The translations under genes and the position numbers were made by a program. DNA of 64,000 nt. Source: Eledone cirrhosa (Eukaryota). Of this stretch, positions 21,943-50,019 are shown in pieces. Below the pieces are notes generated by a model that searched no databases, was not told the origin of the DNA, and worked only from the letters and a program-made list of their open reading frames with translations. Within the stretch, counting starts at the first letter, position 1. The number at the start of each line of letters is the position of its first letter. The stretch covers positions 20,770,001 to 20,834,000 of the forward strand of contig OZ024747.1 in NCBI GenBank assembly GCA_964016885.1, given 5' to 3'.

Positions 21943-22075
21943 CAGCATCATCACCAACAACGACATCATCATCATCATCATCATCATCGTTATCGCTGTC
22001 ATCATCATCAATACCTTTATCATCATCTTTATCGTCACCATCACCAACAACGACATCATCATCATCATCATCATC
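21290..22075. repeat. (CAT)n-derived higher-order repeat with 140-155 bp units
   Basis: ccacagcatc landmarks near 21493, 21646, 21799 and 21940. Confidence 0.9.
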
Positions 22076-22739
22076 ACATTATTGTCATCGTCATCAACAA
22101 CAACAGTCTCCACCTCCACCACTACCATATTAAAAATCTTAAATCAAAAACTCCAAGTATATAACGAAGAAATGTTATTACTTCGCATTGTTGCTCGGTG
22201 TCTAAGAGGAAAAAGCCCGGATGTAGTTGAAGTAATTGTGACGTGGTCCATTTCATCGACTTTGCAACTTGATTGGTTTATTGGCTAGTTCGGTGATTGG
22301 GATTGGCCAGACTATGTATGTGTGAAAGACAATCACTTGTTGAGAAGGTGACCTTTTTCAACGGTCAAGCTTTCAAGAGATTTCTTTATTGCTTCATGTT
22401 CAGCAACTACCGCGACGGACACCACACCGCCGCCCACTATCAGCATCAAAACCGCCTTCTCTTGTTCTGTTATTCTACCAATTCAACATTCACTACCAAG
22501 ACAAGCACCGCCACGACCTCTACCAATATCAACATAACCACCACCACCACCAGCACAGTCACCTCTATTACTAACACCAACGCAATCACCATCATTGTCA
22601 ACACCAACACAAGCATCACTATCTACAACACAAACCTCAATACAATCCCCATCGCTACTAAAACCATCATAACTAGCAACAACGCTACCATCATCAACAC
22701 TGACACAATCACCACCACTACCAACACCAACACAGCCGT

Positions 22740-25700
22740 CACCACCATCACTGCCAACACTACCACCAACACAGCCATCACCACCATCACTGCCAACACT
22801 ACCACCAACACAGCCATCACCACCATCACTGCCAACAACACCACCACTAACATTACCACCACCACCATCACTGCCAACACCACCACTAACATTACCACCA
22901 CCACCATCACTACCAACACCACAACTAACATTACCACCACCATCACTACCAACACCACCACTAACATTATCACCACCACCATCACTACTAACACCACCAC
23001 TAACATTACCACCACCACCATCACTACCAACACCACCACTAACATTACCACCACCACCATCACCACCAACACCACCACTAACATTACCACCACCACCATC
23101 ACTACCTACACCACCACTAACATTACCACCACCACCATCACCACCAACACCACCACTAACATTACCACCACCACCATCACTACCTACACCACCACTAACA
23201 TTACCACCACCACCATCACTACCAACACCACCACTAACATTACCACCACCACCATCACTGCCAACACCACCACTAACATTACCACCACCACCATCACTAC
23301 CAACACCACAACTAACATTACCACCACCATCACTACCAACACCACCACTAACATTATCACCACCACCATCACTACCAACACCACCACTAACATTACCACC
23401 ACCACCATCACTACCAACACCACCACTAACATTACCACCACCACCATCACTACCAACACCACCACAAACATTACCACCACCACCACCACTACCAACACCA
23501 CCACTAACATTACCACCACCATCATCACTACCAACACCACCACAAACATTACCACCACCACCATCACTACCAACACCACCACAAACATTAGCACCACCAC
23601 CATCACTACCAACACCACCACTAACATTACCACCACCACCACCACTACCAACACCACCACTAACATTAGCACCACCACCATCACTACCAACACCACCACT
23701 AACATTACCACCACCACCATCACTACCAACACCACCACTAACATTACCACCACCACCATCACTACCAACACCACCACTAACATTACCACCACCACCACCA
23801 CTACCAACACCACCACTAACATTAGCACCACCACCATCACTACCAACACCACCACTAACATTACCACCACCACCATCACTACCAACACCACCACTAACAT
23901 TACCACCACCACCATCACTACCAACACCACCACTAACATTACCACCACTACCATCACTACCAACACCACCACTAACATTACCACCACCATCACTACCAAC
24001 ACCACCATTAACATTACCACCACCATCATCACTACCAACACCACCATTACCACCACCACCTTCACTACCAACACTACCACTAACATTACCACGACCATCA
24101 TCACTACCAACACCACCACTACCATTACCACCACCACCACCATCACTACCAACACTACCCCTAACATTACCACCACCACCATCACTACCAACACTACCAC
24201 TAACATTACCACCACCACCATCACTACCAACACCACCACTAACATTACCACCACCACCATCACTACCAACACCACCACTGACAATACCACAACCACCACA
24301 ATCACTACCAACACCACCACTAACATTACCACCACCACCATCACTACCAACACTACCACTAACATTACCACCACCACCATCACTACCAACACCACCACTG
24401 ACATTACCACCACCACCACCATCACTACCAACACCACCACTAACATTACCACCACCACCATCACTACCAACACCACCACTAACATTACCACCACCACCAT
24501 CACTACCAACACCACCACTAACATTACCACCACCACCATCACTACCAACACCACCACTAACATTACCACCACCACCATCACTACCAACACCACCACTAAC
24601 ATTACCACCACCACCATCACTACCAACACCACCACTAACATTACCACCACCACCATCACTACCAACACTACCACTAACATTACCACCACCACCATCACTA
24701 CCAACACCACCACTAACATTACCACCACCACCATCACTACCAACACTACCACTAACATTACCACCACCACCATCACTACCAACACCACCACTGACATTAC
24801 CACCACCACCACAATCACTACCAACACCACCACTAACATTACCACCACCACCATCACTACCAACACTACCACTAACATTACCACCACCACCATCACTACC
24901 AACACCACCACTAACATTACCACCACCACCATCACTACCAACACCACCATTAACATTACCACCACCACCATCACTACCAACACCACCACTAATATTACCA
25001 CCACCACCATCACTACCAACACCACCACTAACATTACCACCACCACCACCATTACCAACACCACCACCAACATTACCACCACCATCACTACCAACACCAC
25101 CACTAACATTACCACCACCACCACTACCAACACCAGCACTAACATTACCACCACCACCACTACCAACACCAGCACTAACATTACCACCACCACCATCACT
25201 ACCAACACCAGCACTAACATTACCACCACCACCACCATTACCAACACCACCACCAACATTACCACCACCATCACTACCAACACCACCACTAACATTACTA
25301 CCACCACCATCACTACCAACACTACCACTAACATTACCACCACCACCACTACCAACACCAGCACTAACATTACCACCACCACCATCACCACCAACACCAC
25401 CACTAACATTACCACCACCACCATCACTACCAACACCACCACTAACATTACCACCACCACCATCACTACCAACACCACCACAAACATTACCACCACCACC
25501 ACCACTACCAACACCACCACTAACATTACCACCACCACCATCACTACCAACACCACCACAAACATTACCACCACCACCATCACTACCAACACCACCACAA
25601 ACATTAGCACCACCACCATCACTACCAACACCACCACTAACATTACCACCACCACCACCACTACCAACACCACCACTAACATTAGCACCACCACCATCAC

Positions 25701-28700
25701 TACCAACACCACCACTAACATTACCACCACCACCATCACTACCAACACCACCACTAACATTACCACCACTACCATCACTACCAACACCACCACTAACATT
25801 ACCACCACCATCACTACCAACACCACCATTAACATTACCACCACCATCATCACTACCAACACCACCATTACCACCACCACCTTCACTACCAACACTACCA
25901 CTAACATTACCACGACCATCATCACTACCAACACCACCACTACCATTACCACCACCACCACCATCACTACCAACACTACCCCTAACATTACCACCACCAC
26001 CATCACTACCAACACTACCACTAACATTACCACCACCACCATCACTACCAACACCACCACTACCATTACCACCACCACCACCATCACTACCAACACTACC
26101 ACTAACATTAACACCACCACCATCACTACCATCACCACCACTAACATTACCACCACCACCATCACTACCAACACCACCATTAACATTACCACCACCATCA
26201 TCACTACCAACACCACCACTAACATTACCACCACCACCATCACTACCAACACCACCACTAACATTACCACCACCACCATCACTACCAACACCACCACTAA
26301 CATTACCACCACCACTACCAACACCACCACTAACATTACCACCACCACCATCACTACCAACACCACCACTAACATTACCACCACCACCATCACTACCAAC
26401 ACCACCACTGACAATACCACAACCACCACAATCACTACCAACACCACCACTAACATTACCACCACCACCATCACTACCAACACTACCACTAACATTACCA
26501 CCACCACCATCACTACCAACACCACCACTGACATTACCACCACCACCACCATCACTACCAACACCACCACTAACATTACCACCACCACCATCACTACCAA
26601 CACCACCACTGACATTACCACCACCACCACCATCACTACCAACACCACCACTAACATTACCACCACCACCATCACTACCAACACCACCACTGACATTACC
26701 ACCACCACCACAATCACTACCAACACCACCACTAACATTACCACCACCACCATCACTACCAACAACACCACTAACATTACCACCACCACCATCACTACCA
26801 ACAACACCACTAACATTACCACCACCACCATCACTACCAACACTACCACTAACATTACCACCACCACCATCACTACCAACACCACCACTAACATTACCAC
26901 CACCACCATCACTACCAACACCACCATTAACATTACCACCACCACCATCACTACCAACACCACCACTAATATTACCACCACCACCATCACTACCAACACC
27001 ACCACTAACATTACCACCACCACCACCATTACCAACACCACCACCAACATTACCACCACCATCACTACCAACACCACCACTAACATTACCACCACCACCA
27101 CTACCAACACCAGCACTAACATTACCACCACCACCACTACCAACACCAGCACTAACATTACCACCACCACCATCACTACCAACACCAGCACTAACATTAC
27201 CACCACCACCACCATTACCAACACCACCACCAACATTACCACCACCATCACTACCAACACCACCACTAACATTACTACCACCACCATCACTACCAACACT
27301 ACCACTAACATTACCACCACCACCACTACCAACACCAGCACTAACATTACCACCACGACCATCACTACCAACACCACCACTAACATTACCACCACCACCA
27401 CTACCAACACCAGCACTAACATTACCACCACCATCACTACCAACACCAGCACTAACATTACCACCACCACCATCACTGCCAACACCACCACTAACATTAC
27501 CACCACCACCATCACTACCAACACCACCACCAACATTACCACCATCACTACCAACACAAACACTAACAATACCACCACCACCATCACTACCAACACCACC
27601 ACCAACATTACCACCATCACTACCAACACCACCACTAACATTACCACCACCACCATCACTACCAACACCACCACTGACATTACCACCACCACCACAATCA
27701 CTACCAACACCACCACTAACATTACCACCACCACCATCACTACCAACACTACCACTAACATTACCACCATTACCATCACTACCAACACCACCACTAACAT
27801 TACCACCACCACCATCACTACCAACACCACCACTAACATTACCACCACCACCATCACTACCAACACTACCACTAACATTACCACCACCACCATCACTACC
27901 AACACTACCACTAACATTACCACCACCACCATCACTACCAACACCACCACTAACATTACCACCACCACCATCACTACCAACACCACCACTGACATTACCA
28001 CCACCACCACAATCACTACCAACACCACCACTAACATTACCACCACCACCATCACTACCAACAACACCACTAACATTACCACCACCACCATCACTACCAA
28101 CACCACCACTAACATTACCACCACCACCATCACTAGCAACACCACCACTAACATTACCACCACCACCATCACTACCAACACCACCACTAACATTACCACC
28201 ACCACCACCATCACTACCAACACCACCACTAACATTACCACCACCACCATCACTAGCAACACCACCACTAACATTACCACCACCACCATCACTACCAACA
28301 CCACCACTAACATTACCAACACCACCACCATCACTACCAACACCACCACTAACACTACCACCACCACCATCACTACCAACACCACCACTAACATTACCAC
28401 CACCACCATCACTACCAACACCACCACTAACATTACCACCACCACCATCACTAGCAACACCACCACTAACATTACCACCACCACCATCACTACCAACACC
28501 ACCACTAACATTACCACCACCACCATCACTAGCAACACCACCACTAACATTACCACCACCACAATCACTACCAACACCACCACTAACATTACCACCACCA
28601 CCATCACTACCAACAACACCACTAACATTACCACCACCACCATCACTACCAACACCACCACTAACATTACCACCACCACCATCACTAGCAACACCACCAC

Positions 28701-31290
28701 TAACATTACCACCACCACCATCACTACCAACACCACCACTAACATTACCACCACCACCATCACTACCAACAACACCACTAACATTACCACCACCACCATC
28801 ACTACCAACACCACCACTAACATTACAACCACCACCATCACTACCAACACCACCACTAACATTACCACCACCACCACTACCAACACCACCACTAACATTA
28901 CCACCACCACCATCACTACCAACACCACCACTAACATTACCACCACCACCACTACCAACACCACCACTAACATTACCACCACCATCACTACCAACACCAC
29001 CACTAACATTACCACCACCACCATCACTACCAACACCACCACTAACATTACCACCACCACCATCACTACCAACACCATCACTAACATTACCACCACCACC
29101 ATCACCACCAACACCACCACTAACATTACCACCACCACCATCACTACCAACACCACCACTAACATTACCACCACCACCATCACTACCAACACCACCACTA
29201 ACATTACCACCACCACCACTACCAACACCACCACTAACATTAGCACCACCACCATCACTACCAACACCACCACTAACATTACCACCACCACCACCACTAC
29301 CAACACCACCACTAACATTACCACCACCACCACCATCACTACCAACACCACCACTAACATTACCACCACCACCATCACTACCAACACCACCACTAACATT
29401 ACCACCACCACCACCACTACCAACACCACCTCTAACATTACCACCACCACCACCACTACCAACACCACCAATAACATTACCACCACCACCATCACTACCA
29501 ACACCACCACTAACATTACCACCACCACCACCACTACCAACACCACCACTACCATTACCACCACCACCACCATCACTACCAACACCACCACTAACATTAC
29601 CACCACCACCATCACTACCAACACCACCGCTAACATTACCACCACCACCATCACTACCAACATTACCACCACCACCATCACTGCCAACACCACCACTAAC
29701 ATTACCACCACCACCATCACTACCAACACCACCACTAACATTACCACCACCACCATCACTACCATCACCACCCCTAACATTACCACCACCATCACTACCA
29801 ACACCACCACTAACATTACCACCACCACCACCACTACCAACACCACCACTAACATTACCACCACCACCATCACTACCAACACTACCACTAATATTACCAC
29901 CACCACCACCACTACCAACACCACCACTAACATTACCACCACCACCATCACTGCCAACACCACTACTAACATTACCACCACCACCATCACTACCAACACT
30001 ACCACTAACATTACCACCGCCACCATCACTACCAACATTACCACCACCACCATCACTACCATCACCACCCCTAACATTACCACCACCATCACTACCAACA
30101 CTACCACTAACATTACCACCACCATCATCACTACCAACACCACCACTAACATTACCACCACCACCACCATCACTACCAACACTACTACTAACATTACCAC
30201 CGCCACCATCACTACCAACACCACCACTAACATTACCACCACCACCATCACTACCAACACCACCACTAACATTACCACCACCACCACCACTACCAACACC
30301 ACCACTAACATTACCACCGCCACCATCACTACCAACACCACCACTAACATTACCACCACCACCACCATCACTACCAACACTACCACTAACATTACCACCA
30401 CCACCATCATCACTACCAACACCACCACTAACATTACCACCACCATCATCACTACCAACACCACCACTAACATTACCACCACCACCACCATCACTACCAA
30501 CACTACCACTAACATTACCACCACCACCATCACTGCCAACACCACCACTAACATTACCACCACCATCATCACTACCAACACCACCACTAACATTACCACC
30601 ACCATCATCACTACCAACACCACCACTAACATTACCACCACCACCACCACCATCACCATCACTACCAACACCACCACTAACATTACCACCACCATCATCA
30701 CTACCAACACCACCACTAACATTACCACCACCACCACCACCATCACCATCACTACCAACACCACCACTAACATTACCACCACCATCATCACTACCAACAC
30801 CACCACTAACATTACCACCACCATCATCACTACCAACACCACCACTAACATTACCACCACCACCACCACCATCACCATCACTACCAACACCACCACTAAC
30901 ATTACCACCACCATTATCACTACCAACACCACCACTAACATTACCACCACCATCATCACTACCAACACCACCACTAACATTACCACCACCACCACCACCA
31001 TCACCATCACTACCAACACCATCACTAACATTACCACCACCATCATCACTACCAACACCACCACTAACATTACCACCACCACCACCACCATCACCATCAC
31101 TACCAACACCACTACTAACATTACCACCACCATCATCACTACCAACACCACCACTAACATTACCACCACCACCACTACCAACACCACCACTAACATTACC
31201 ACCACCACCATCACTACCAACACCACCACTAACATTACCACCACCACCACCACCACCATCATCACTACCAACACCACCAAGAACACAACT
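22740..31290. repeat. 39-bp ACC-derived minisatellite, about 8.5 kb
   Basis: Unit accaacaccaccactaacattaccaccaccaccatcact with triplet indels and kb-scale internal duplications. Confidence 0.95.
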
Positions 31291-31339
31291 ACTCACCACC
31301 AAATAACGATTTTTCGTATTTGAGAGGAAAAAACCCCAG

Positions 31340-31590
31340 CTATTTCTCTACAGTTTCTCGTATCACTGAATTTGCCTGATTTAGGAATTGATATCAATTC
31401 GTTCTCTTACAACTTATATGGTTTCCCTGAGTTTGTAAGGAGCTTGTTCGCAAACTCCAAGATAATTTCACTCAATGACCATCGTTTGAGTACCTCAGGA
31501 AGAATTCCATTTGGATCAGCAGCATTTCATCCTTTTATATTCTTATCGATCGGTCCCATTGATAGATGGATCTCTCCAAGGTTATCTTTA
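31340..31590 (-). pseudogene. Degraded LINE RT N-terminal fragment
   Basis: NAADPNGILPEVLK...ELISIPKSGKFSDTRNCREIA resembles KAAGPDGIPPEVLK...IPIPKKG...NYRGI. Confidence 0.6.
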
Positions 31591-31967
31591 ATAAGGGTAG
31601 CAGCTAATAAAAGTGACGATAGTTATTTTATTATACGTTCCTCTCTACTTTTTTCTGTATAGGATTCTAGCGTTTTTTGTTGTATTTTTTTGTTTGTTTG
31701 TTTGTTTTTATCACACATATCATATTGGCTCTCTTTCAGCTGTTAATGCGCTTGTTTCACCTTCCTTAAATAAACAGGGTGATAGCATTTAGTTACGGCC
31801 CTTTACGTTCTTTGTTAAAATCCCGCTTTGCATTTCATTATTTCAGAGTCGATAAAATAAAGTACATGTAAAGTGTTTGTGTTGATTTAATCTACTTTCA
31901 CCTCCACCAAAATTAATGGCCCTGTACCTATGTTAGAAAAATAGTCCAATTTTTCGTCCCCAATAGT

Positions 31968-32153
31968 TGTTTCTACTTTTGGCACAAGGCCAGCTATTAT
32001 CTCAGTGCATTACTGGTACTTTATTTTATCTACCCCGTAAGGATGAAAGGCAAAGTTAACTTCGACGGGATTTGAACTCAGACCGTAAAGGAAGGTAACT
32101 ATGCTGGAAAGCATGACGTCGTCCGACCCTCTACTGATATTGTCAATCCACCA
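31968..32153 (-). mobile_element. SINE family A
   Basis: Same consensus as 59828-60011. Confidence 0.85.
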
Positions 32154-40885: not shown

Positions 40886-41440
40886 TATTAATGTGCAATA
40901 AGAGCAAAATATAACGACATTGCTCAATTATTTTATCTAATGTTGTAATAACACAAGGAAATGTTGTTTGTGTATTTTTTTTTATATTTGCTCATAGGCT
41001 TTTACAATTTCGCTCAGCCAACAACTATTAAAAAGTGAGTTGCTTAAGATAACAATTTAATCACAAATTGTTGCTATCTTTTAATACACTCCAACAAGTC
41101 ATCAAATTATGTACAATAAAAACAAATCTTATTAATTTGCTCAGGGAATATAAAGAAAATGTATATACACTGATAATTGCAAATGTATGTAAATATTTTG
41201 TTTTTGTATTGTATATTTTATGTTTTCTATTATGTATAATATATTGATTTAATATTGATTGTTTTTTGTAGTTGTTTATATTAAAAGTCTGAAAATATTT
41301 TTATACATCTTACACTAATATTTATAAGATAATTTATAATAACAATTACATAATCTAATTACATTACAACGATAATTTATTATTAATATATATCCTGTTT
41401 AACTAGAGTTATTACAAGCGTTGCCTTAAAAAAATATTAA

Positions 41441-42397
41441 ACTAGACATGAAAAATGCGCAAGCTCAAAAGTGCCACAGAATGTTATAATAAACCTTCAA
41501 AAGTGTGGGACTAGAGTTGTTGCTAAAAAATATTGTAATCATTATATATCGTACATTCTGTGGCATCCTTTATAAAAATAGCTTAAACCAACGAAGCCTT
41601 TATTTTTACGCTATTTCACTTAGTTAATTCTTAGAGTGTAACATATAAAAATAAATACATCTATGTTTAATGTAATAACAGCTATAAATAATTACGTAAT
41701 ATTATTATCATATACTCATAGTAACAAAATAATTGTGTTGAAACTTAATATGATGCTTATATGAACGATCAAATCTATAATGATAATTTCTTAAATATAC
41801 TAATAGTAAAATAATTTAGTTATCTATTGTTACATTTTCATAGAACTATAATATTAACAATCGTATTGCATTATCAAATTTTTATCACTACAAACTTTCA
41901 TATTGGAATTACCTTAAGCCACTTATTATTACTTCGCTTTCGTACTTTTACAGCTGTAGATATTGCGCTGTATCTTATATCTAATATCAATATCTCGTGG
42001 TAATTTGCATGAAGTGTAAAATAGGTTTATTAATAACTTTAATATGAAATGTATTATACAGGGCTGCGGAGTCGGTCAAAAATTAACTGGCTCCAACTCA
42101 GGATCCGATACTCCATTATTTCCTAAATTTCAGCTCCGCAGCTCTGTTATTATATTAATTAATTTATTTTATAGTTGTAAATCATATTTTTATATGTTAC
42201 ACTCTAAGAATTAACTAAGTGAAATAGCGTAAAAATAAAGGCTTCGTTGGTTTAAGCTATTTTTATAAAGGATGCCACAGAATGTACGATATATAATGAT
42301 TACAATATTTTTTAGCAACAACTCTAGTCCCACACTTTTGAAGGTTTATTATAACATTCTGTGGCACTTTTGAGCTTGCGCATTTTTCATGTCTAGT
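41441..42397. repeat. 213-bp inverted repeat with 531-bp spacer
   Basis: 41441-41653 is the reverse complement of 42185-42397. Confidence 0.9.
42059..42146. mobile_element. 88-bp hAT-type MITE
   Basis: TIR cagggctgcggag / ctccgcagctctg; flanks gtattata and ttattata (7/8 match). Confidence 0.7.
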
Positions 42398-42406
42398 ATA
42401 TATATG

Positions 42407-42500: not shown

Positions 42501-42900
42501 TAAAATACAATATGTTGAAAAGGTAACACACCAGAGAGAGATATATAGTGTGTTATCAATAATACAGGGAAAAACCACCAGTGTATGGATCTATAACCTA
42601 TGAAAGGCAGACTATAGACACGATAATTAAAAATATAAATTAAAGCGTATATAAATACCTCTATAACTATCGCTTTAATTTATATTTTTAATTATTGTGT
42701 CTATAGTCTGCCTTTCATAGGTTATAGATTCCATACACTGGTGGTTTTTTCCCTGTATTATTGATAACACACTATATATCTCTCTCTGGTGTGTTACCTT
42801 TTCAACATATTGTATTTTAAAGAGCTCAGGATCTCTTCTTCTTTGAGCACATTATTTACAGGGAATAGCGAGGGCCTATGCCTCCGTTAATTTATCGTGA
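42501..42900. repeat. Fold-back element in (TA)n: about 147-bp arms, 23-bp spacer and a unique tail
   Basis: 42501-42647 versus 42671-42819; tail to 42900, then (TA)n. Confidence 0.88.
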
Positions 42901-44926: not shown

Positions 44927-45000
<74 letters not shown>

Positions 45001-45005
<5 letters not shown>

Positions 45006-45232
45006 TAACAGATTAAAGTTTAAGCAAAGAATCGCTGCTTTCACCCTTAACGGGAGTTTCAGAAGATCCCGTTAAGGGTGAAAGCAGCGATTCTTTGCTT
45101 AAACTTTAATCTGTTAATTTAATAAATATTTGCTCTACGGTTCTTATATATTTGATATATATTTATCCTTATCGAGCCCTCTTTGGATTTTAGTCTTCAA
45201 ATTTATTATTATTACTATTATTATTATTATTA
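45001..45232 (+). mobile_element. Fold-back element in (TA)n; relatives at 17071-17190, 15062-15135 and 12716-12770
   Basis: Arms 45006-45055 and 45067-45116. Its tail (aataaatatttgctctacgg...gattttagtcttca) is shared with 17092-17170. Confidence 0.75.
45055..45105 (+). ncRNA. Hammerhead-like fold with CAGAAGA core; family copies at 12716-12766 (+) and 15081-15131 (-)
   Basis: aguuu CAGAAGA u ccc-guuaa-ggg u GAAA gca-gcgauucuu-ugc UU aaacu. Confidence 0.55.
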
Positions 45233-45744: not shown

Positions 45745-45787
45745 ATTTTCTTGCACACTGCCAAAGATTCGATTTTACGAAGCCTCC

Positions 45788-45847
<60 letters not shown>

Positions 45848-45885
45848 GGAGGCTTCGTAAAATCGAATCTTTGGCAGTGTGCAAG

Positions 45886-45890
<5 letters not shown>
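45745..45890. repeat. 146-bp perfect palindrome centred on (TA)27
   Basis: attttcttgcacactg...cctccaat (TA)n attggagg...cagtgtgcaagaaaat. Confidence 0.9.
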
Positions 45891-45943
<53 letters not shown>

Positions 45944-46056
45944 TTTACACATACACCAATTAAACAAAGTCACAGGTATATATGTGTTTTGGCAATTATT
46001 CACGATGTGGCTCAATGAAGAATTAATAAATGAAATAATCAGAGCAAAATACTATT

Positions 46057-46773
46057 GAGCAAAGCATGTCCAGAGAATTATTTGATAATATATATACATC
46101 ATTTCTACTCCCAATCAGCATAATTAACCACACAAAAAATCAATTAGGCCAGGCTATAAGAATAGAAGGCACCTATGAAGAAACAGTAAATAAATACGCC
46201 ACAGCAGCGTCTTTGCGGTCAACCGCTATAGAATATTTACCCAACATTTCAACAGCACGTAGAAATTAATTAAATATACGGTCAACAATACATAATTAGG
46301 TAAAAATTAAAGTTTGAAATGCTTATATACATACCAGGATTAAATCACTAAATCCATTTTGAATTCGTGTTTGGCGGGGGCCACTTCAGAAATTAATCTG
46401 TCCTAGCGAGTTTGTCCCCTGAAGAGCTCTAAACTCGAGATTTATCCTTACTAAGATATCTCAAAATGTGATCGAAACCCATGGGTCGGGATTTAGTGAT
46501 TTAATTTTGGTATGTATATAATAATTTTTACCTAATTATGTATGGTTGACCGTATATTTAATTAATTTCCACGTGCTGTTGAAATGTTGGGTAAATATTC
46601 TACAGCGGTTGACCGCGAAGACGCTGCTGTGGCGTATTTATTTACTGTTTCTTCATAGGTGCCTTCTATTCTTATAGCCTGGTCTAATTGATTTTTTCTG
46701 TGGTTAATTATGCTGATTGGGAGTAGAAATTATGTATATATATTATAAAATAATTCTCTGGACATGCTTTGCT

Positions 46774-46774
<1 letters not shown>
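46057..46774 (+). mobile_element. Fold-back element with a hammerhead in the spacer
   Basis: Inverted arms 46057-46355 and 46489-46774; right end abuts (TA)n. Confidence 0.75.
46414..46492 (+). ncRNA. Type-I hammerhead in the spacer of a 300-bp inverted repeat
   Basis: guccc CUGAAGA gcuc...gauc GAAA cccauggg UC gggau. Palindromic stem III, GUC cleavage triplet, extended stem II with one mismatch. Confidence 0.75.
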
Positions 46775-46856
<82 letters not shown>

Positions 46857-47097: not shown

Positions 47098-47290
47098 AGA
47101 AGTGTGGCAAGGTACCAGGTGGACCATAACGCATCAGAGTACTCGATACTTTGGGTAGTAGAGTGGGTAATAGGAGAAGAGTCTGGACCCTGGCGGCTGA
47201 GCTCCGGCCATTTCGACAGCTAATTCTGTTCAGAACCAGCTGTCGAAACGGCCGGAGCTCAGCCGTCGGGGTCCTGACTCTTTTCTTATA
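47098..47290. mobile_element. Fold-back element in (TA)n, related to 36341-36479
   Basis: Arms 47170-47221 and 47238-47289. The left part matches 36352-36423 (gtggaccataac...gtagtagagtgggtaatagga). Confidence 0.7.
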
Positions 47291-49827: not shown

Positions 49828-50019
49828 ATCGTATAATTCGCAGTGGTTCAGCATATAGTCAAGCTATAAACGGTATCCAGTCGGTTCTTAATTAATATAT
49901 CATGCTGTCCAAATCATTCAGGCACTTCCGGAATTTGGACAGCATGATATATTAATTAAGAACCGACTGGATACCGTTTATAGCTTGACTATATGCTGAA
50001 CCACTGCGAATTATACGAT
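49828..50019. repeat. 87-bp inverted repeat with 18-bp spacer
   Basis: 49828-49914 versus 49933-50019. Confidence 0.9.

What the first reader, a model, noticed from the sequence alone, without database searches (positions are those of the whole stretch)
46057..46774. Inverted arm begins at the predicted ribozyme cleavage site
The hammerhead at 46414-46492 predicts cleavage after GUC at 46487. The roughly 290-bp inverted duplication covers the sequence from 46489 onward (left arm 46057-46355). So the inverted copy corresponds to the 3' self-cleavage product to within 1 nt. Inference: reverse transcription ran to the end of a self-cleaved RNA and then switched template, leaving a genomic record of in vivo cleavage.
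Basis: partly seen in the sequence, partly recalled or inferred. Interest (0 to 1): 0.85.

Follow-up and report, generated by a model that had tools for sequence, protein, structure and literature searches.

The report
Ribozyme cut recorded in retroelement ends
This is a back-to-back insertion of a small non-coding mobile repeat that carries a predicted self-cutting RNA motif; copies across the genome stop sharply at the predicted cut, which likely records the RNA cutting itself in living cells before being copied into DNA.

Summary
Observation confirmed, with corrections. The hammerhead (46413-46493, GUC at 46485-46487) and the inverted arm starting at 46489 are real. The left arm is 424 nt (45932-46355), not about 290, and holds 117 nt that the right arm lacks, so it is not a fold-back copy. 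The right arm runs through an intact cut site.

The element is a non-coding 688-nt Penelope-type retrozyme (532 exact marker hits). A control GGG site gives 1 against 242 (p=6e-5). Upstream positions give about 0.3 each. The 13 are not descendants of one founder. A second subfamily agrees (3 of 3). An autonomous Penelope element in this genome shows no such peak.

Likely mechanism: two target-primed cDNAs begin at two fixed sites (30 of 30 pairs) and are joined head-to-head; here one ran off a self-cleaved 5' end. About 70% of copies read through the site. No RNA data. This copy's +1 end is about 70-80% likely cleavage-derived.

This scan noted similar arms in other families of this genome and mostly judged them chance.

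The parts
45891..45940 (.). Left (TA)n target microsatellite, overlapping the outer end of the left arm
   Evidence: sequence
45932..46355 (-). Left (inverted) arm, 424 nt, monomer positions 134-557; 3' end at the second fixed site (557), 5' end 1 nt past the predicted cleavage product start
45932..46048 (-). 117-nt 'tail' (monomer 441-557) present only on the left arm
46354..46355 (.). 2-nt CC microhomology at the head-to-head junction
46354..46782 (+). Right arm, monomer 687/1-440, reads through the hammerhead; 13-nt deletion after 46521 relative to family and left arm
46413..46493 (+). Type I hammerhead motif with extended stem II and palindromic stem III; one stem II mismatch in this copy
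46485..46488 (+). Predicted scissile bond, GUC|G between 46487 and 46488 (monomer 132|133)
   Evidence: hammerhead consensus (established knowledge)
46776..46856 (.). Right (TA)n target microsatellite
   Evidence: sequence

Best explanation
This is a head-to-head insertion of a non-coding 688-nt hammerhead repeat into a TA microsatellite, likely made by a Penelope-type reverse transcriptase, and its left arm likely ends where it does because the template RNA had cut itself there. Shown: the layout, the two fixed 3' ends, the shared origin of both arms and the family-wide peak of 5' ends at the predicted cut. Inferred steps: (1) a tandem source locus is transcribed; some hammerheads cut, others do not or are religated. 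(2) Both ends of the broken (TA)n target prime cDNA on sense RNA, one at monomer 440 and one at 557. (3) The 557-primed cDNA runs off a cleaved 5' end at 133; the 440-primed cDNA passes an intact junction and stops at 687/1. This needs two RNAs from the same source, or one dimer cut at the first ribozyme only. (4) The two cDNA 3' ends are joined over 2 nt of microhomology with loss of one base, by an RT jump or host end-joining.
For: 13 separate loci of 19 true truncations in a 5-nt window start exactly at the cut, 154 intact (binomial 7e-6). Control GGG site: 1 vs 242 (Fisher 5.7e-5). Positions -25..-3: 7 truncations at 7 different positions among 95 hits. Subfamily B (GUA site): 3 of 3 start at the cut, 2 of them ambiguous by TA microhomology. 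Unbiased sample: 23 of 79 arms end at -2..+26, 0 of 56 at -30..-3. Stop-at-site arms are scattered on the tree (18 label changes, 19.9 shuffled; one clade rejected, p-AU 2e-6). Compensatory changes in stems I and II. 30 of 30 classifiable inverted pairs are 440+557. The two arms share three rare variants and are sisters, 98/89. Autonomous PLE motif: at most 119 vs 6130, no comparable peak.
Against: No biochemical or RNA evidence of cleavage. This copy ends at +1, not 0; only 2-3 other loci end at +1/+2 against 0.6 expected (P 0.12 to 0.02). 56 of 79 arms cross the site. A TA-rich window at -383..-411 has an equal or higher broad truncation rate (8 of 20), so the broad pile-up alone proves little. 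This copy's stem II is mismatched and Rfam finds no hammerhead. No autonomous partner with shared sequence was found. Frangieh et al. found uncleaved RNA to be the main substrate for an anole PLE in vitro and no reads ending at the site. Earlier scan notes on other families report no peak (not re-tested).
Confidence: 0.72

Rival explanations
1. The family peak is real, but this copy's left arm stopped at +1 by chance (ordinary truncation fixed by the CC microhomology).
For: End is at +1..+3, not 0; the partner arm crossed an intact site; background truncation is about 0.3 per position in the same sample.
Against: Ends at +1/+2 in other loci are 3 to 5 times background; one lost base is expected from microhomology joining of a cDNA ending in CCC.
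Confidence: 0.17
2. The peak marks an RT stall at the folded, uncut ribozyme or a transcription start at this G, not self-cleavage.
For: The site lies in a three-way junction; subfamily B has a second pile-up at +3..+6, near the base of stem I (12 of 89 hits). No RNA end chemistry is available.
Against: A structural stall should fall at the 3' foot of stem I, not exactly at the scissile bond. The +3..+6 group has TA microhomology with the target. The position was predicted beforehand from ribozyme chemistry and holds in two subfamilies with different flanking bases (GUC, GUA). A start site landing on this base would be a coincidence.
Confidence: 0.07
3. Single-polymerase fold-back: RT copied one RNA, then turned back on its own cDNA (or self-primed on an antisense template) to make the inverted duplicate.
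For: Arms share rare variants; short hairpin-like junction inserts occur in L124, L126, L138, L177; self-priming on antisense RNA was proposed for PLE palindromes (PMC3846280).
Against: The left arm holds 117 nt absent from the right arm; outer ends are always one 440 and one 557 (30 of 30); the peak at a sense-strand cut implies a sense template.
Confidence: 0.04

Closest known systems
Metazoan non-LTR retrozymes (Cervera and de la Pena 2020, PMC7229834, passages read; Li et al. 2026, bioRxiv 10.64898/2026.07.22.740005, first fifth and passages read)
   Same: Non-coding tandem or partial-tandem repeat, type I hammerhead in each unit, low GC, dispersed copies.
   Different: Monomer 688 nt against about 170-400 nt; mostly 1-2.5 units; RNA not tested here. 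The passages seen do not map genomic 5' ends to the cleavage site.
EN+ Penelope-like element insertions (Craig et al. 2021, PMC8557442; Arkhipova et al. 2013, PMC3846280; passages read)
   Same: 5' truncation, partial tandems, inverted 5'-truncated copy, tail on one end only, (TA)n target, microhomology junctions.
   Different: No ORF; tail is 117 nt, not 30-40; no sequence likeness to the pLTR of the abundant RT/GIY-YIG element tested.
Poseidon PLE of Anolis in vitro (Frangieh et al. 2024, PMC11167929, main text read)
   Same: Two internal RT start sites defining the tail; both strands cut and extended; AT-rich target.
   Different: There cleavage was dispensable, uncut RNA was the main substrate and no reads ended at the site; here a minority of genomic ends sit exactly on it.
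R2 retrotransposons with HDV-like ribozymes (Eickbush et al. 2013, PMC3774820, abstract read)
   Same: Ribozyme cleavage sets the template's 5' end and shapes genomic 5' junctions, joined by chance microhomology.
   Different: HDV-like fold, autonomous, rDNA-specific, cleavage defines the full-length end. Here a hammerhead inside a circularly permuted non-coding unit gives one of several ends.

Membership tests
Type I hammerhead ribozyme | CUGANGA and GAAA core with NUH triplet in type I order | tested here: met
   46419-46425, 46474-46477, 46485-46487; kept across the family
Type I hammerhead ribozyme | Three helices supported by covariation | tested here: met
   8 pairs with two-sided change vs 4.3 shuffled (3/500), 87% cells paired, 28 rows of which 2 were truncated; relatedness inflates this; this copy has one stem II mismatch
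Type I hammerhead ribozyme | Match to an Rfam hammerhead model | tested here: not met
   no hit at gathering score or at E<=10; long stem II insert may explain it (inference)
Type I hammerhead ribozyme | Self-cleavage activity | not testable with these tools
   indirect only: peak of 5' ends at the predicted bond
Metazoan non-LTR retrozyme | Tandem units each with a type I hammerhead | tested here: met
   L006/L008 hold 2.5 units of 688 nt with the site in each; the window copy itself has one motif
Metazoan non-LTR retrozyme | No protein coding | tested here: met
   longest stop-free frame 92 codons in 6 monomers
Metazoan non-LTR retrozyme | Unit of about 150-450 nt | tested here: not met
   656-689 nt
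Metazoan non-LTR retrozyme | Expressed as linear and circular RNA | not testable with these tools
   no RNA holder listed
Penelope-mobilised non-autonomous element | Partial tandem/inverted layout, one-sided tail, 5' truncation, AT-rich target | tested here: met
Penelope-mobilised non-autonomous element | Sequence shared with an autonomous PLE pLTR | tested here: inconclusive
   no BLAST hit to 30 copies of one abundant RT/GIY-YIG family; other PLE families not tested
Penelope-mobilised non-autonomous element | Target-site duplication | not tested
   target is (TA)n, so a duplication cannot be read in this copy

The most novel reading that the evidence does not exclude
The genome holds a base-precise fossil record of in vivo hammerhead cleavage: Penelope RT uses linear self-cleaved sense RNA for roughly 10-30% of insertions of this retrozyme, alongside circular or uncut templates, while the autonomous Penelope element's own minimal motif leaves no such mark. 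Peak height at the scissile bond could then be read as a sequence-only measure of past ribozyme activity for any retrozyme or PLE family.
Probability: 0.6. Interest if true: 0.72.

Novelty: new variant of a known kind. Interest (0 to 1): 0.58.

Why it matters
The role of hammerheads in Penelope-type elements is open: the 2014 description says in vivo evidence was absent (PMC4209133), a 2021 paper calls the function unclear (PMC8557442), and the 2024 in vitro study found cleavage dispensable (PMC11167929). A single-base peak of genomic 5' ends at the predicted bond would show that cleavage happened in the germline, that cleaved linear RNA is a real RT substrate, and that the template is the sense strand. 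The strict 440+557 pairing gives a simple two-primer account of PLE inverted repeats and one-sided tails. The element class and layout themselves are known, and R2 offers a precedent for ribozyme-set junctions.

Tried and rejected
Rfam: no hammerhead hit. First look at 30 best-matching loci suggested scattered breakpoints, but that set was biased to copies spanning the site, so it was replaced by anchor-based samples. Founder effect rejected (varied junction bases). GGG runs attracting breakpoints rejected. Broad-window excess not used as main evidence because a TA-rich window is as hot. Simple fold-back rejected. Autonomous partner: one abundant RT/GIY-YIG family found beside L045 shares no sequence with the monomer. 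Single-sequence folding does not single out the hammerhead. Scan look-up by sequence found nothing. Literature searches for a prior report of retrozyme or PLE 5' ends at the hammerhead cut found none in the listings or passages seen; the library lacks most subscription journals and no supplements were read. The host species was not established.

Full report
Observation. The inverted match pairs 46049-46355 with 46782-46489, so it starts 1 nt past the predicted 3' product. Against a natural monomer from a tandem copy (L008, 688 nt; cut between m132 and m133), the left arm is 45932-46355 = m134-557 and the right arm 46354-46782 = m687-440. Both outer ends abut (TA)n. The left arm has 117 nt the right arm lacks; the right arm reads through the site. 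The junction has a 2-nt microhomology.

The element. The window lies in a 3.0-Gb genome. A 26-mer of the element has 532 exact hits. Six monomers are 656-689 nt with no stop-free frame over 92 codons. Rfam has no hit and the window's motif folds no better than shuffles; its stem II has a mismatch found only in this copy among 223 loci held. Across 28 aligned rows (2 truncated) stems I and II show compensatory changes between subfamilies: 8 pairs with two-sided change, 4.3 shuffled, 3 of 500. Relatedness inflates that control.

Single-base test. A genome-wide pattern anchored just after the site and demanding non-consensus bases 3-4 nt before it gave 21 hits; the consensus version gave 154. Reading the junctions: 14 start exactly at the cut (13 loci, two hits lie 38 nt apart), 3 at +1 (this copy, L124, and L130, which could also be -2), 1 each at +2, -1 and -2, and 1 is an intact copy with an insertion. 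After dropping that one and the duplicate, 13 of 19 are at one of five positions (P 7e-6). The same design at another GGG in the element gave 7 hits, 1 at the GGG start, against 242 intact (Fisher 5.7e-5). Upstream, 95 hits held 7 truncations at 7 different positions in -25..-3, 3 near-site copies already counted and 85 intact length variants, classed by eye: about 0.3 per position, so the peak is about 40-fold. A wider downstream pattern gave 89 hits: by eye about 35 intact subfamily B copies, 9 hits (8 loci, 4 new) at 0, and 12 at a TA microhomology 3-6 nt past the subfamily B cut (11 of 12 B-like). Subfamily B, which has GUA, gave 3 of 3 at the cut, 2 ambiguous by microhomology.

Unbiased sample. 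I fetched 91 of the 92 C1 hits and one C2 hit. They gave 89 arms; one was dropped because of an internal deletion. Of 79 arms reaching +26, 23 end at -2..+26 (5.4 expected), none of 56 ends at -30..-3, and 56 cross the site. Against my reading: a TA-rich window at -383..-411 is as hot (8 of 20), so broad pile-ups are weak evidence.

Founder control. On a tree of 75 arms (23 labelled stop, including the one false hit; 52 cross) the stop label needs 18 changes, 19.9 when shuffled, and one clade is rejected (p-AU 2e-6). Junction bases differ and include joins to partner arms.

Contrast. An abundant element with an RT-thumb-like stretch (my reading, from recall) and a weak GIY-YIG hit (E 0.016) has its own minimal hammerhead-like motif. 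The same test gave at most 119 non-consensus hits, many of them indel variants, against 6130 intact: 1.9% or less over five positions, against 11% here. Its 3' region shares no sequence with our monomer, so the mobilising partner is not identified.

How the inversion forms. Of 49 head-to-head junctions, 30 have both outer ends at a fixed site, and all 30 pair m440 with m557; solo copies end at m440 in 87 of 106. The window's arms share three variants seen in 1 of 93-95 other arms and are sisters on the tree. I infer two target-primed cDNAs from one source element, begun at two sites and joined at their 3' ends. This resembles L1 twin priming (recalled, no call) and fits the two start sites and two-strand extension of the anole PLE. 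One arm stops at a cut while the other passes one, which needs two RNAs or a partly cut dimer. Whether RT jumped or the host joined the ends cannot be told. Ends at +1/+2 in other loci number 2-3 against 0.6 expected, which puts this copy's end at about 70-80% cleavage-derived.

Known work. Layout and tail: PMC8557442 (passages), PMC3846280 (passages; proposes self-priming on antisense RNA, which a sense-strand cut argues against). Hammerheads in PLEs without in vivo evidence: PMC4209133 (part 2 of 4). Retrozymes as linear and circular RNAs: PMC7229834 (passages). Retrozymes as PLE derivatives: bioRxiv 10.64898/2026.07.22.740005 (part 1 of 5 and passages). Cleavage dispensable in vitro: PMC11167929 (parts 1-2 of 4). 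Ribozyme-set junctions in R2: PMC3774820 (abstract). Searches showed no report of hammerhead-set genomic 5' ends; supplements were not read. Earlier notes of this scan describe the same kind of arm in other families and mostly call it chance; three of them already propose two-sided priming. I did not re-test those families.

Verdict. A known kind of element with a well-controlled new observation at family level. Evidence is DNA-only. Interest 0.58.

Noticed in passing
G000-wide; loci L001-L174: Every classifiable inverted pair has one arm ending at monomer 440 and the other at 557 (30 of 30); solo copies mostly end at 440 (87 of 106).
   Followed up: yes
L194-L223; L045:1912-3026: Very abundant young RT/GIY-YIG Penelope-type element (31,118 first-look candidates; 6130 exact motif hits) with a minimal hammerhead-like motif, two 3' ends and an inverted tail piece.
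   Followed up: partly
matches: The stem III loop bases are hypervariable among otherwise near-identical copies (palindromic and mutually complementary variants), unlike the flanks.
   Followed up: no
L121, L124, L126, L138, L177 junctions: Short inverted copies of the first 10-45 nt after the cut sit at the junction, as if the cDNA end at the cut was copied twice; in several pairs both arms stop at or near the site.
   Followed up: partly
C1 sample, 383-411 nt upstream of the cut: Second truncation hot zone near one unit length from the 440 start, in TA-rich sequence (8 of 20 arms).
   Followed up: no
window 44993-45129, 45745-45890, 47170-47289, 42501-42819, 49828-50019, 41434-42405: Many other palindromes and inverted pairs close by, probably more head-to-head insertions of other families.
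   Followed up: no
window about 22000-32000: About 10 kb with GC skew near -0.98 and AT skew near +0.5, probably a long simple repeat.
   Followed up: no
window 10959-62681, many copies of 110-200 nt: Dispersed short repeat with more than ten copies in both orientations.
   Followed up: no
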